Shown here: positions 16,689 through 18,535 of the stretch, piece by piece
Layout: the number at the start of each line of letters is the position of its first letter
Position numbering within the stretch: the stretch's first letter is position 1
IMG/VR virus record: IMGVR_UViG_2537561944_000042
Length of the DNA: 57,168 bases
Direction: 5' to 3' (one strand)
DNA from: a virus
Lineage: Duplodnaviria > Heunggongvirae > Uroviricota > Caudoviricetes
Program-made: the position numbers and the translations under genes
The notes under the pieces: generated by a model
What the model was told of the DNA's origin: nothing
The model's database searches: none
Seen by the model: only the letters and a program-made list of their open reading frames with translations

Positions 16689-17254
16689 TTCACCTCCTGC
16701 TGCGGTGCTGCTGGCATTTCACGCCAGTGCGTAACTGAGTGCGGATCCGGATATTCGGTGCCATCATCCCAGCGATTGCCATTCCACATTGCAGACCACA
16801 TCTCACCGTCTTCATACATGACCATTACCGGAATTAACTTATCCGGCATTCGCTCACTACAGCATATCCAACCATCCGGAGTTACCGGAGAGTTGCCCGA
16901 TAGCGCATTACGCAATCGCTCCAGCTTCACGTATTCCTGAACCCTGTTTCCGTCGCATGCCTGAAGCCATTGCGCAGCCTTTTGCGCATCAGTGTGAAAG
17001 GCACAAGTGCGACCGTCATCAAATTGCATTTCGTAGAGGTCAGCAACTTGTTCAAACTGCGTATGTTGTGACTTGTAAGTTTGGCTTACAGGTTCGGCAC
17101 CATGAAGCATGGCGGCGCGGAGTTTCTGTATCTCCCGTGCCATTATTGCGGCCTGACGAGGAGTGAACATATCACCTGCAATAATTCTGTTTAGTTCCTC
17201 GTCAGTGAACTCATAATCATCAGGAACATTGTGAACCTTGAGGTGTACTGGCAA
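16685..17254 (-). CDS. DUF551-like phage protein; 5' end lies within the IS terminus, so probably N-terminally disrupted
   Basis: C-terminal W-rich block (MWSAMWNGNRWDD...VTHWREMP) typical of DUF551; the first codons (TTG start) come from the IS end at 17239..17254. Confidence 0.5.
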   Translation of the reverse strand: MPVHLKVHNVPDDYEFTDEELNRIIAGDMFTPRQAAIMAREIQKLRAAMLHGAEPVSQTYKSQHTQFEQVADLYEMQFDDGRTCAFHTDAQKAAQWLQACDGNRVQEYVKLERLRNALSGNSPVTPDGWICCSERMPDKLIPVMVMYEDGEMWSAMWNGNRWDDGTEYPDPHSVTHWREMPAAPQQEVK

Positions 17255-17281
17255 TAGCGGACACTACCATTTGTTCTTTTT

Positions 17282-18100
17282 TTAAGCAGCCATCTGATGA
17301 TATTTTTCCCTGAAGGCTGCCGGGGAGATATTCCCCAGACGAGAGTGACGACGCTGACGATTGTAGAAAATCTCAATGTATTCCCGTATTACTGAGATGG
17401 CTTCATCCCGGTTATTAAAACGATAGTGGCTCAGGCTCTCATTTTTCAGCGTTCCCCAGAAGCTTTCCATCGGAGCGTTGTCGTAACAGTTACCTTTACG
17501 CGACATTGATGTTTTCAGACCAAACTGCTCCTGTATGACCCGGTAATCGTATGCGCAGTACTGTGAACCTCGATCAGAGTGGTGGATTAGCCCGGCAGGT
17601 GGGCGCTGGCTCCTGAGCGCCATAAACAGAGCTTTACCTGTCAGCTCTTTTGTCATGCGCTCTCCCATGGCGTAGCCGACAATTTCGCACGTATAAACAT
17701 CTTTGATGCCAGCGAGGTACAACCATCCCTCCTGTGTGGCAACATACGTCAGGTCCGCCACCCAGACCTGATTTGGTGCTGTAGGAGCGAACGTCTGGTT
17801 CAGCAGATTTGGCGCAACTGGCAGATTGTGGTTCGAGTTCGTAGTCGCTCTGAACTTGCGTTTCTGCTTACAGCGTAGCCTTAGCTCCTTACGAAGACGT
17901 GCCAGTCGGTCACGACCAACGATGATGCCATTCTCTGCCAGCTCCGTCTGGAGCCGCCGGGTTCCATATGTTTCGCGAGTGCGGATATGTGCCACCTTAA
18001 TCTCCAGTTTTAGCCGCTCATCACTTTGTTTTCTGTCTGAGGGTTCATGCTGTACCCAGTTGTAATAACCGCTCCTGGATACACCAAATACCTGACACAT
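17282..18100 (-). CDS. IS3-family transposase OrfB (DDE integrase core)
   Basis: 272-aa ORF with DDE block (WVADLTY...HSDRGSQY...CYDNAPMESFW). Confidence 0.85.
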   Translation of the reverse strand: MCQVFGVSRSGYYNWVQHEPSDRKQSDERLKLEIKVAHIRTRETYGTRRLQTELAENGIIVGRDRLARLRKELRLRCKQKRKFRATTNSNHNLPVAPNLLNQTFAPTAPNQVWVADLTYVATQEGWLYLAGIKDVYTCEIVGYAMGERMTKELTGKALFMALRSQRPPAGLIHHSDRGSQYCAYDYRVIQEQFGLKTSMSRKGNCYDNAPMESFWGTLKNESLSHYRFNNRDEAISVIREYIEIFYNRQRRHSRLGNISPAAFREKYHQMAA

Positions 18101-18135
18101 CGCTTCAATGGGAAATTGTTGTCGCCATTGTTCGA

Positions 18136-18438
18136 TTAACGCGTATTTTTCAGCGACTCCTGTGCAAAATACGCTGTTGCTTTTTTTAATATATCTCGCT
18201 CAAGGCGAGCTTCATTTAACGCCTTACGCAGTTGCAGAATTTCAGATTCCAGTTCAGCCACCGTGCGGGAACCAGGAGTACCGAGCCCTTTTCTGGCGGC
18301 GGTAACCCATTGTCCTAAAGTGCCTTCAGGAAGAGATAATCGGGAAGCGCCTTCACTGATCGAAAGTTGATTTTCAAGAACCGTTCTGACAGCTTCGGCT
18401 TTGAACTCTTTAGAGTAACGTTGGGTTTTTCTGCTCAT
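18136..18438 (-). CDS. IS3-family transposase OrfA
   Basis: 100-aa ORF with HTH and leucine zipper; directly upstream of orfB. Confidence 0.85.
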   Translation of the reverse strand: MSRKTQRYSKEFKAEAVRTVLENQLSISEGASRLSLPEGTLGQWVTAARKGLGTPGSRTVAELESEILQLRKALNEARLERDILKKATAYFAQESLKNTR

Positions 18439-18535
18439 TATTAGCTCCTTCTGATGCCATTCTATTTCAGGAAGGAGTGTCCGTTAAACTCAGGCTACCT
18501 CACCTCAGCATAAAGAGGCTTTTTTGTAGAAATGG

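What the first reader, a model, noticed from the sequence alone, without database searches (positions are those of the whole stretch)
17239..18507. IS3-family element inserted in the prophage early-left operon, replacing the 5' end of a DUF551 gene
Imperfect terminal repeats (TGAGGTG... / ...CACCTCA) bound a 1269-bp element encoding OrfA and OrfB. The first codons of the downstream DUF551 ORF, including a TTG start, come from the IS end. The insertion is therefore polar on the leftward operon leading to xis and may affect excision regulation.
Basis: seen in the sequence. Interest (0 to 1): 0.35.

Follow-up and report, generated by a model that had tools for sequence, protein, structure and literature searches.

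The report
IS600 insertion splitting a prophage gene
An intact copy of the well-known mobile element IS600 has inserted into a small accessory gene (DUF551) of a P22-like prophage of an E. coli O26:H11-type strain; this is an ordinary transposition event, and the gene's own start still lies on the far side of the element.

Summary
The element is real and is IS600 (IS3 family). It is 100% identical over 1,264 bp to copies annotated as IS600 in many STEC genomes. Its true bounds are 17239-18502, not 18507. It has 27-nt imperfect inverted repeats and a perfect 3-bp target duplication (CCT at 17236-38 and 18503-05).

Deleting the IS plus one CCT gives a site 100% identical to more than 60 complete E. 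coli genomes (all strains inspected were O26:H11/H-), where the DUF551 gene is an intact 195-codon ORF. So the IS did not replace the gene's 5' end. It split the gene at codon 12/13. The original Shine-Dalgarno sequence, ATG and 12 codons survive at 18504-18539. The "TTG start" inside the IS end exists only as a mechanical ORF.

Polarity on the excisionase gene torI is possible in principle but probably small. The operon has an N-like antiterminator and already has to pass three terminator-like hairpins before torI.

Context: this is a P22-like prophage at argW with a KplE1/HK620-type module, with intS and torI at opposite ends.

Side finding: the same early-left region carries IS600 at 11 different sites across O26 genomes.

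Verdict: already known, low interest.

The parts
17239..18502 (-). Complete IS600 copy, 1,264 bp. IRL is at the high-coordinate end, so the transposase is read leftward, in the same direction as the prophage early-left operon.
   Evidence: 100% identical over 1,264 nt to copies annotated 'IS3-like element IS600 family transposase' in other genomes. It is the only copy in the window.
18476..18502 (.). Left inverted repeat (IRL); outer end reads 5'-TGAGGTAGCC... on the - strand.
   Evidence: I1: 27-nt arms, 70% complementary.
17239..17265 (.). Right inverted repeat (IRR); outer end reads ...GTACACCTCA-3' on the - strand.
17236..17238 (.). Target-site duplication, copy 1 (CCT on +, AGG on -).
   Evidence: Seven of eight IS600 copies examined have perfect 3-bp duplications, as do all 13 complete copies mapped in the related prophages. 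A 3-nt IS600 target is stated in PMC9397093.
18503..18505 (.). Target-site duplication, copy 2 (CCT).
18136..18438 (-). orfA, 100 aa, HTH_Tnp_1 domain.
   Evidence: Pfam PF01527, E=1.5e-20.
17282..18199 (-). orfB reading frame (-1 relative to orfA). It has HTH_21 and rve (DDE integrase core) domains, with motifs D (VWVADLTY), D (HHSDRGSQY) and E (NAPMESF); 35 residues lie between the second D and the E.
   Evidence: translation; Pfam PF00665 E=3.9e-26 and PF13276. The 385-aa OrfAB fusion matches NF033516 'IS3 family transposase' end to end, 414.5 bits against a cutoff of 160.
18181..18187 (-). A7 slippery run (TTA AAA AAA GCA in the orfA frame): the predicted -1 programmed frameshift site that produces OrfAB.
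   Evidence: RefSeq annotates the identical copies as 'programmed frameshift'.
18141..18174 (-). Hairpin starting 6 nt downstream of the slippery run; predicted frameshift stimulator.
   Evidence: I15: 12-nt arms, 92% complementary. MFE -13.1 kcal/mol, z = -2.1, 5/200 shuffles fold as well.
18459..18487 (-). Promoter-like site inside IRL (TTAACG-17-TAGAAT), upstream of orfA.
   Evidence: This is a consensus match only.
18445..18477 (-). Predicted hairpin CUCCUUC...GAAGGAG that pairs the orfA Shine-Dalgarno sequence. The -10 hexamer lies in its loop, so only read-through transcripts from outside would contain both arms.
   Evidence: Seen in the MFE structure. The fold as a whole is not better than shuffles (z = -0.45). 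The function is inferred.
18495..18539 (-). Displaced 5' end of the DUF551 gene: native ATG (18539-18537, overlapping the TGA of the upstream gene) and codons 1-12. It now runs into IRL and reads MTISTKKPLYAEVR-stop.
   Evidence: intact homologues.
16685..17236 (-). 3' part of the DUF551 gene (codons 13-195 plus stop), which has lost its start codon. The DUF551 domain itself (residues 134-191) lies here.
   Evidence: Pfam PF04448, E=3.3e-17.
17237..17254 (-). Six codons (TTG CCA GTA CAC CTC AAG) that extend the mechanical ORF back to a TTG inside the IS. Only the final AG of the last codon is duplicated target DNA. No Shine-Dalgarno sequence precedes the TTG. It is in the orfB frame, behind two stop codons.
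15489..15689 (-). Context: torI-type excisionase (recombination directionality factor), the last gene of the leftward operon, 1.55 kb downstream of the IS.
   Evidence: RefSeq annotates the identical gene as torI, WP_001163428.1; phrog_66 excisionase.
24698..24967 (-). Context: N-like antitermination protein gene at the head of the leftward operon.
   Evidence: phrog_271 'anti-termination protein N-like', E=4e-34.
15400..15415 (.). Context: attR core, the 16-nt repeat of the argW 3' end (CTGCAGGGGACACCAT on the - strand). It marks the prophage end just beyond torI.
   Evidence: The same 16-mer is given as the KplE1 core in PMC2951348.
56011..57168 (-). Context: intS-type integrase, intact at 385 aa, at the opposite end of the prophage.
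   Evidence: annotated 'prophage integrase IntS' in O26 11368; phrog_1 integrase.

Best explanation
This is a recent, simple transposition of an intact IS600 into codon 12/13 of a 195-codon DUF551 accessory gene. The gene lies in the early-left (pL) operon of a P22-like prophage integrated at argW in an E. coli O26:H11-type chromosome.

Shown:
- The element is 1,264 bp and carries imperfect 27-nt inverted repeats ending TG...CA.
- orfA and orfB overlap in the 0/-1 frames, with an A7 slippery run and a downstream hairpin.
- The transposase has a DD(35)E rve core.
- The element is flanked by a 3-bp duplication (CCT).
- No host DNA was lost.
- The gene is split into a 12-codon head that keeps the native Shine-Dalgarno sequence and ATG (now a 14-codon ORF ending in IRL) and a 183-codon tail with no proper start.

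Inferred from the IS3-family paradigm (IS911, IS3, IS2; from established knowledge):
- OrfAB is made by -1 frameshifting.
- It excises a circular copy (copy-out) and pastes it into a new target (paste-in), making the 3-bp duplication.

Inferred consequences:
- The DUF551 protein is lost.
- Translation of the next gene (DUF4752, whose ATG overlaps the DUF551 stop) may drop.
- The effect on torI, and so on prophage excision, is probably small, because N-modified polymerase from pL should read through a co-oriented IS that has no predicted terminator.
- The insertion may be reversible in strains that carry the IS-excision enhancer.
For: Identity and boundaries:
-.
- 100% identity to annotated IS600 copies, and identical ends in 8 copies.
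- NF033516 IS3 transposase at 414.5 bits; Pfam HTH_Tnp_1, HTH_21 and rve; frameshift hairpin z = -2.1.

Simple insertion:
- The reconstructed empty site is 100% identical over 802 bp in 60+ complete E. coli genomes (all strains inspected were O26), where an intact DUF551 gene is annotated.
- The reconstructed protein is 100% identical over residues 1-195 to ORFs in phage H19J and O26 Stx1a phages.
- The window is otherwise 99.96-99.99% identical to O26:H11 str. 11368.

Not an assembly artefact:
- The same IS-gene junction occurs in an independent draft assembly, GCA_002735005.1, with 0 mismatches over 3,635 nt.

IS600 is active in this lineage:
- 11 different insertion sites occur in the same region of the same prophage family, each with its own 3-bp duplication.
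- IS600 amplification in O26:H11 and IEE-mediated IS600 excision are reported in PMC9397093.

Small effect on torI:
- No terminator-like site on the - strand of the IS.
- N-like gene present.
- Three terminator-like hairpins on the - strand between the IS and torI even in the IS-free arrangement.
Against: - Nothing contradicts the identity or the anatomy.
- The functional statements are not measured.
- If the predicted hairpin that hides the orfA ribosome-binding site forms in read-through RNA (not statistically distinctive), about 1.2 kb of the pL transcript would be untranslated. Rho-dependent polarity could then be substantial for any polymerase that is not N-modified.
- No nutL site was identified here.
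- The ISfinder reference sequence itself was not available. The name IS600 rests on RefSeq annotation of identical copies, plus the 1,264-bp length and 3-bp duplication.
Confidence: 0.93

Rival explanations
1. The IS replaced (deleted) the 5' end of the DUF551 gene and now supplies its translation start (TTG). This would create an IS-driven N-terminally altered protein and a strongly polar block of xis/torI expression.
For: The mechanical ORF 16685-17254 does begin at a TTG inside IRR. A gene caller accepted that 189-aa ORF in a draft assembly. The IS lies between pL and torI.
Against: - No sequence is missing; the empty site reconstructs exactly, and the native start is still at 18537-18539.
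- No Shine-Dalgarno sequence precedes the TTG.
- No outward promoter-like site was found at the IRR end.
- An N-like antiterminator and pre-existing terminators argue against strong added polarity.
Confidence: 0.04
2. The insertion is functionally selected rather than neutral. Under this view, IS600 insertions in the early-left operon are favoured because they attenuate the prophage, for example through reduced torI, kil or other early-left expression.
For: - 18 of 48 genomes with the full 10.47-kb region carry at least one IS600 there.
- 11 distinct sites were found within 6.3 kb.
- In the 25-kb late region only 6 of 59 genomes show IS600-sized insertions.
- A rough binomial test gives p = 0.005.
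Against: - Insertions occur in both orientations (6 minus, 5 plus) and mostly in small accessory genes of unknown function. That is what relaxed constraint alone would give.
- The late region also carries IS600 and another 1.3-kb IS.
- The genomes are phylogenetically related, so the counts are not independent.
- The late-region sites were not mapped.
- IS accumulation in STEC prophages is already known for IS629 (from memory; IS amplification is stated in PMC9397093).
Confidence: 0.15
3. Assembly artefact: a repeated IS was wrongly placed in this gene by the assembler.
For: IS600 is multicopy in these genomes, with 9-43 places per genome. No complete RefSeq E. coli genome and no phage record has the IS at this exact site.
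Against: The 3-bp duplication flanking exact IS ends is perfect. The identical IRR-gene junction is present in an independent draft assembly.
Confidence: 0.01

Closest known systems
IS600 (IS3 family; first described in Shigella sonnei, 1,264 bp - from memory; annotated in RefSeq as 'IS3-like element IS600 family transposase', WP_085948186.1)
   Same: - 100% nucleotide identity over all 1,264 bp to many annotated copies, and 99.8% to an EIEC pINV plasmid copy.
- Same ends, same 3-bp duplication, same orfA/orfB frameshift organisation.
   Different: Nothing in the element itself. Only the insertion site is new: it is absent from 5,426 complete E. coli genomes and 50,697 phage records and present in one draft assembly.
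IS911 / IS3 / IS2 paradigm of IS3-family transposition (copy-out-paste-in through a circular intermediate, with OrfAB made by -1 frameshifting)
   Same: - Two ORFs in 0/-1 phases.
- A-rich slippery heptamer followed by a hairpin.
- HTH plus DD(35)E transposase.
- TG...CA ends and a 3-bp duplication.
   Different: - The mechanism is inferred by homology, not tested here.
- IS911-style targeting next to inverted-repeat-like sequence is hinted at this one site, where the target TGAGGT equals the IS terminal hexamer.
- It is not seen at 7 other IS600 sites.
IS600 in lacZ of STEC O121:H19, excised by the IS-excision enhancer IEE (PMC9397093)
   Same: The same IS interrupts a gene in a STEC lineage that carries SpLE1-like iee elements (O26:H11 is named among them). 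The target is 3 nt.
   Different: There the IS opposes the operon and gives a visible phenotype. Here it is co-oriented with a phage operon, and no phenotype is known. Whether this strain carries iee is unknown, because that locus is outside the window.
KplE1 (CPS-53) / HK620 / Sf6 recombination module at argW (PMC2951348, PMC3509656)
   Same: - The 16-nt core CTGCAGGGGACACCAT.
- intS beside attL and torI beside attR, at opposite prophage ends.
- A TorI-annotated directionality factor.
   Different: - This is the genomic context, not the finding itself.
- Here the prophage is a full-length P22-like genome, not a 10-kb remnant.
- A second, IntS-like integrase pseudogene belonging to a tandem island abuts attR.

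Membership tests
IS3 family insertion sequence | Length about 1.2-1.55 kb, with imperfect terminal inverted repeats ending 5'-TG...CA-3'. | tested here: met
   1,264 bp; 27-nt inverted repeats; ends TGAGGT...ACCTCA.
IS3 family insertion sequence | Two consecutive, partly overlapping ORFs (orfA, orfB) in relative phases 0 and -1. | tested here: met
   Three-frame translation of the element; ORF list.
IS3 family insertion sequence | Programmed -1 frameshift signal: an A-rich slippery heptamer in the overlap plus a downstream structure. | tested here: met
   A7 at 18181-18187. Hairpin 6 nt downstream, -13.1 kcal/mol, z = -2.1. Frameshifting itself was not measured; RefSeq annotates identical copies as 'programmed frameshift'.
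IS3 family insertion sequence | OrfAB transposase with an N-terminal HTH and a C-terminal DD(35)E (rve) catalytic core. | tested here: met
   PF01527, PF13276, PF00665. NF033516 IS3 family transposase, 414.5 bits against a cutoff of 160, profile positions 1-369 of 369. D...D-35-E read directly from the translation.
IS3 family insertion sequence | Short (3-4 bp) direct target duplication. | tested here: met
   CCT/CCT. 3-bp duplications at 7 of 8 copies examined and at all 13 complete copies mapped in the related prophages.
IS3 family insertion sequence | Transposition by copy-out-paste-in through a circle with abutted ends. | not testable with these tools
   Needs PCR for IRR-IRL circle junctions or transposition assays.
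IS600 (the specific element) | Near-identity (isoform level, above about 95%) to the IS600 reference over its full length. | tested here: met
   100% over 1,264 nt to copies that RefSeq names IS600. The ISfinder reference itself was not available, so this is one step indirect.
DUF551 (PF04448) gene, the insertion target | Match to the Pfam DUF551 domain above the gathering score. | tested here: met
   63.5 bits against a cutoff of 22, residues 134-191 of the reconstructed 195-aa protein.
KplE1/HK620/Sf6-type argW recombination module (context) | 16-nt core CTGCAGGGGACACCAT duplicated at both prophage ends, with the integrase next to argW/attL and the TorI directionality factor next to attR. 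| tested here: met
   The core was found at the argW 3' end and again between torI and the neighbouring int pseudogene in the near-identical O26 11368 locus. It lies at window 15400-15415. Gene positions are; the definition is from PMC2951348. The attL copy lies just outside the window.

The most novel reading that the evidence does not exclude
The early-left accessory region of this argW P22-like prophage may be a true regional hotspot, or a selected sink, for IS600 in the O26:H11 lineage. There are 11 independent sites in 6.3 kb, and more than a third of complete genomes are affected. On this reading, the insertions collectively tune or disable early-left functions (kil, erf, abc, torI supply), making this an observable case of IS-driven prophage domestication. 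The DUF551 insertion in this window would be one instance of it.
Probability: 0.15. Interest if true: 0.4.

Novelty: already known. Interest (0 to 1): 0.1.

Why it matters
It matters little on its own.

Its uses are practical:
- **Annotation.** The locus should be annotated as IS600 (17239-18502) with a DUF551 pseudogene in two pieces, not as a 189-aa DUF551 protein with a TTG start, which is how one draft assembly called it.
- **Strain typing.** The site is a strain- or sublineage-specific marker among O26:H11-type genomes. It is absent from all 5,426 complete E. coli genomes searched.
- **IS activity.** Together with ten other IS600 sites in the same region, it shows how active IS600 is in this lineage and how readily prophage accessory DNA absorbs it.
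- **Testable consequence.** In this type of recombination module excision is triggered by supply of the directionality factor TorI, and the IS lies upstream of torI. A small effect on excision is therefore conceivable and easy to test.

Tried and rejected
1. **Integrase pseudogene.**
- I first took the integrase with an in-frame stop at 14035-15252, next to torI, to be the prophage's own integrase. That would have made the prophage already excision-defective.
- I rejected this after seeing the whole locus. The prophage uses intS at its other end (56011-57168, intact).
- The attR core lies between torI and the pseudogene, so the pseudogene belongs to a tandem island.

2. **Targeting to IS-end-like sequence.**
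- The target hexamer TGAGGT equals the IS terminal hexamer, which suggested IS911-like targeting to inverted-repeat-like sequence.
- The seven other IS600 flanks show no such mimicry. I treat the match as coincidence or, at most, a weak preference.

3. **Orientation bias.**
- The first five insertions mapped in this prophage were all co-oriented with the operon.
- With eleven sites the split is 6 to 5, so there is no bias.

4. **Outward promoter from IRR.** No promoter-like site was found that would drive the truncated gene.

5. **Same insertion elsewhere.**
- The five 100%-coverage hits turned out to be composites, with IS600 in neighbouring genes.
- No phage record has the insertion.
- The only other occurrence found is one draft assembly.

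6. **Other copies in the window.** The 272-aa ORF at 1068-1886 has the same length as the longest ATG ORF in orfB but no transposase domain. BLAST finds only one IS600 copy in the window.
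Full report
**1. What is in the sequence**

Between 17239 and 18502 lies a 1,264-bp element read on the minus strand.
- orfA (18438-18136) encodes 100 aa with an HTH_Tnp_1 domain (E=1.5e-20).
- orfB is in the -1 frame and is open from 18199 to 17282. It has HTH_21 and rve (integrase core) domains.
- In the overlap, orfA reads TTA AAA AAA GCA, so there is an A7 run at 18181-18187.
- Six nucleotides downstream there is a hairpin with 12-nt arms (18141-18174). Its MFE is -13.1 kcal/mol, z = -2.1, and 5 of 200 shuffles fold as well.
- Joining the frames at the A7 run gives a 385-aa OrfAB. It matches NCBIfam NF033516 'IS3 family transposase' over the whole profile (414.5 bits, cutoff 160).
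- The catalytic D (VWVADLTY), D (HHSDRGSQY) and E (NAPMESF) can be read directly from the translation, with 35 residues between the second D and the E.
- A promoter-like site (TTAACG-17-TAGAAT, 18487-18459) lies inside the left end, upstream of orfA.

**2. Boundaries**

The best terminal inverted repeat is 17239-17265 against 18476-18502: 27 nt, ending TGAGGT.../...ACCTCA (I1). Several results support 18502.
- Anchoring the right end at 18502 aligns the conserved CGGACACT block of both ends. Anchoring at 18507 does not (24 against 20 matches in 45).
- Matches to other copies of the element in E. coli genomes and Stx phages stop at 18502.
- Eight independent copies from different genomes all have the same two ends and the same 1,264-bp length.
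- With these bounds the element is flanked by a perfect 3-bp direct repeat, CCT, at 17236-17238 and 18503-18505.
- Seven of those eight copies have a 3-bp duplication, as do all 13 complete copies mapped in the related prophages.
- A 3-nt target for IS600 is also stated in PMC9397093.

That coincidence explains the miscall.

**3. Identity**

The copy is 100% identical over all 1,264 nt to copies that RefSeq annotates as 'IS3-like element IS600 family transposase' (WP_085948186.1, programmed frameshift). These occur in many STEC chromosomes and in Stx2a phages. It is 99.8% identical to a copy on an EIEC pINV plasmid. It is the only copy in the window. I could not query ISfinder, so the name rests on that annotation plus the canonical length and duplication.

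**4. Insertion, not replacement**

Deleting 17239-18502 and one CCT gives an 802-bp test sequence that is 100% identical, end to end, to more than 60 complete E. coli genomes, all O26:H11/H- among the strains inspected. In those genomes it is annotated as an intact 588-nt 'DUF551 domain-containing protein' gene (WP_000156090.1) plus its upstream neighbour.

The reconstructed ORF reads MTISTKKPLYAE|VHNVPDDYEF... and is 195 aa long. It is 100% identical over residues 1-195 to ORFs in phage H19J (from O26 strain H19) and in O26 Stx1a phages. So no host sequence was lost.

The insertion point is within codons 12/13. Two pieces of the gene remain.
- **5' piece.** The native start ATG (18539-18537) forms ATGA with the stop of the upstream 205-aa gene and is preceded by GGAGGA. 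Codons 1-12 remain on the far side of the IS. That piece now runs into the IS end and reads MTISTKKPLYAEVR-stop.
- **3' piece.** On the near side, codons 13-195 remain (16685-17236).

The ORF finder extends the 3' piece by six codons to a TTG at 17254. All of those codons lie inside the IS end except the last two bases, which are duplicated target DNA.
- That TTG has no Shine-Dalgarno sequence.
- It lies in the orfB frame behind two stop codons.
- No outward promoter-like site was found at that end.

I regard the TTG start as a by-product of ORF finding, although a gene caller accepted it in a draft assembly.

**5. Is it real?**

No complete E. coli genome (5,426) and no phage record (50,697) has IS600 at this exact site. 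The five 100%-coverage hits are composites in which IS600 sits in a neighbouring gene and the DUF551 gene is intact.

The identical junction is present in an independent draft assembly, GCA_002735005.1. Its contig BEJW01000094.1 starts 81 nt inside the IS end and matches the window with 0 mismatches over 3,635 nt. Together with the exact ends and the duplication, this rules out an assembly artefact.

**6. Context**

Apart from this IS and one other IS polymorphism, the window is 99.96-99.99% identical to E. coli O26:H11 str. 11368.

The prophage is P22-like, with portal, P22-type capsid, gp4, gp10, tail needle, ejection proteins and tailspike. On the minus strand the gene order is:
- cI-like repressor (25738-26475)
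- N-like antiterminator (24698-24967; phrog_271, E=4e-34)
- superinfection exclusion gene
- kil
- erf
- anti-RecBCD gene
- Ea22-like gene
- the 205-aa gene
- DUF551
- DUF4752
- two small ORFs
- torI (15489-15689)

So 'early-left operon leading to xis' is a fair description.

The recombination module is of the KplE1/HK620/Sf6 type.
- The 16-nt core CTGCAGGGGACACCAT of the argW 3' end recurs just beyond torI, at window 15400-15415.
- The integrase (intS, 56011-57168, intact) is at the other end of the prophage, next to argW. This matches the description in PMC2951348.
- That paper shows that intS is expressed constitutively at a low level and that excision starts as soon as the directionality factor TorI is produced.

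I first mistook the integrase pseudogene at 14035-15252 (in-frame stop) for the prophage's integrase. It lies outside attR and belongs to a tandem, IS-rich island occupying window 1-15400.

**7. Likely consequences (inferred)**

*Loss of the DUF551 protein.* The DUF551 protein, whose function is unknown, is lost or at best made as an N-terminally altered fragment. The next gene (DUF4752) starts on the last base of the DUF551 stop codon, so translational coupling to it may be lost.

Three observations argue for a small effect.
- The IS is co-oriented with the operon and has no terminator-like site on that strand.
- The operon begins with an N-like antiterminator.
- Even without the IS, three terminator-like hairpins lie on the minus strand between this point and torI (16319-16298, 16287-16268, 15757-15738). 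The scan found 5 sites in the region, against 1.7 +/- 1.1 in shuffles.

pL-driven torI expression must therefore already depend on termination-resistant polymerase. It is classical knowledge (from memory: Adhya, Gottesman and de Crombrugghe 1974; Franklin 1974) that lambda N relieves the polarity of IS insertions.

There is one caveat. In read-through RNA a hairpin (CUCCUUC/GAAGGAG, 18477-18445) can pair the orfA Shine-Dalgarno sequence, with the -10 hexamer in its loop. This resembles the 'protection from outside activation' known for other IS elements (from memory). It would leave about 1.2 kb untranslated and open to Rho in any polymerase that is not N-modified. The fold is not statistically distinctive (z = -0.45).

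*Reversibility.* IEE, encoded on SpLE1-like elements that O26:H11 is reported to carry, promotes simple excision of IS3-family members including IS600 (PMC9397093). The insertion may therefore be reversible. Whether this particular strain has iee is unknown.

**8. Side observation: many IS600 insertions in the same region**

I used the IS-free 10.47-kb torI-to-cI region of O26 11368 as the query. Of the 48 complete genomes with full coverage, 18 have one or two IS600 copies inside it. Mapping representatives gave the following sites, as window-equivalent duplication positions with orientation.

| Position | Orientation | Strain |
|---|---|---|
| 16049 | - | EH031 |
| 16066 | - | 2010C_3902 |
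| 16363 | - | 8479 |
| 16487 | - | FWSEC0001 |
| 16598 | + | EH2252 |
| 17236 | - | this window |
| 20663 | + | MBT-5 (a related prophage) |
| 21324 | + | 00_3230 and 97-3250 |
| 22125 | - | War |
| 22323 | + | RM10386, 03_3469 |
| 22359 | + | EH2252 (second copy) |

In 97-3250 a second IS600 is nested inside the first at 21324.

That makes eleven sites in 6.3 kb, six minus and five plus, each with its own 3-bp duplication. In a 25-kb control covering the late and nin regions, only 6 of 59 genomes show IS600-sized span increases (at most 7 events, not mapped). Another 8-9 genomes show a +1,313-bp increase, which indicates a different IS.

A rough binomial test gives p = 0.005 for enrichment in the early-left region. 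The genomes are related, the late-region sites are unmapped, and relaxed constraint on small accessory genes is a sufficient explanation. I treat this as a lead, not a finding.

**9. Verdict**

This is a correctly spotted but ordinary IS600 insertion.
- 'Replacing the 5' end' is wrong.
- The polarity idea is untested and probably weak.
- The element is already known; only the site is new.
- Interest is low. The density of IS600 in this prophage region is the only aspect that might repay further work.

Noticed in passing
window 16049-22361 (equivalent positions in loci L002, L011-L020): The early-left region of this prophage carries IS600 at 11 different sites, in both orientations and each with a 3-bp duplication, across O26:H11-type complete genomes. 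18 of 48 genomes with the full region have at least one copy. One strain has an IS600 nested inside another IS600. The density is roughly 4-fold higher than in the 25-kb late region, but the comparison is crude.
   Followed up: partly
window 14035-15252 (-) and 15400-15415: There is an IntS-like, P4-type integrase gene with an in-frame stop (…KLEN*TGS…), identical apart from 1 SNP to the pseudogene in O26 11368. It lies just outside the prophage's attR core, so it belongs to a second element integrated in tandem at the argW-derived site. That element is the IS-rich island at window 1-15400.
   Followed up: partly
window 8942-11302 (+), junction near 9593-9595: A 786-aa ORF with an HsdR N-terminal domain is intact here. 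In O26 11368 it is split by a 1.3-kb IS3-family element (L003 46732-47945, with an annotated frameshift pseudoknot). This is the reverse of the IS polymorphism under study.
   Followed up: partly
window 15738-15757, 16268-16287, 16298-16319 (- strand): Three intrinsic-terminator-like hairpins lie inside the leftward operon upstream of torI. The scan found 5 sites in the region, against 1.7 +/- 1.1 in shuffles. This implies that torI expression from pL needs antitermination.
   Followed up: no
window about 15700-15730 (L003 40545-40560): A 16-nt copy of the argW T-arm sequence (TTGCAGGTTCGATTCC) lies just upstream of torI, separate from the 16-nt att core. It may be a relic of an earlier integration event or part of the attR arm.
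   Followed up: no
window 3063-6809 (-): IS66-family genes are present: a full 523-aa TnpC (4195-5766) with its TnpB (5786-6133), plus a second, 5'-truncated IS66 transposase ORF (3063-4112). A degenerate IS3-family transposase remnant lies at 11479-12618.
   Followed up: no
L009 (E. coli 2002-3211, NZ_CP101305.1 4576917-4578606): In a different prophage, another IS600 sits immediately upstream of a different DUF551 gene (WP_000206721.1), again co-oriented with it.
   Followed up: no
window 18498-18507: The target hexamer TGAGGT (- strand) equals the terminal hexamer of IS600. This creates a tandem TGAGG-TGAGG at the IRL junction and is what misled the boundary call. Seven other IS600 sites show no such mimicry.
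   Followed up: yes
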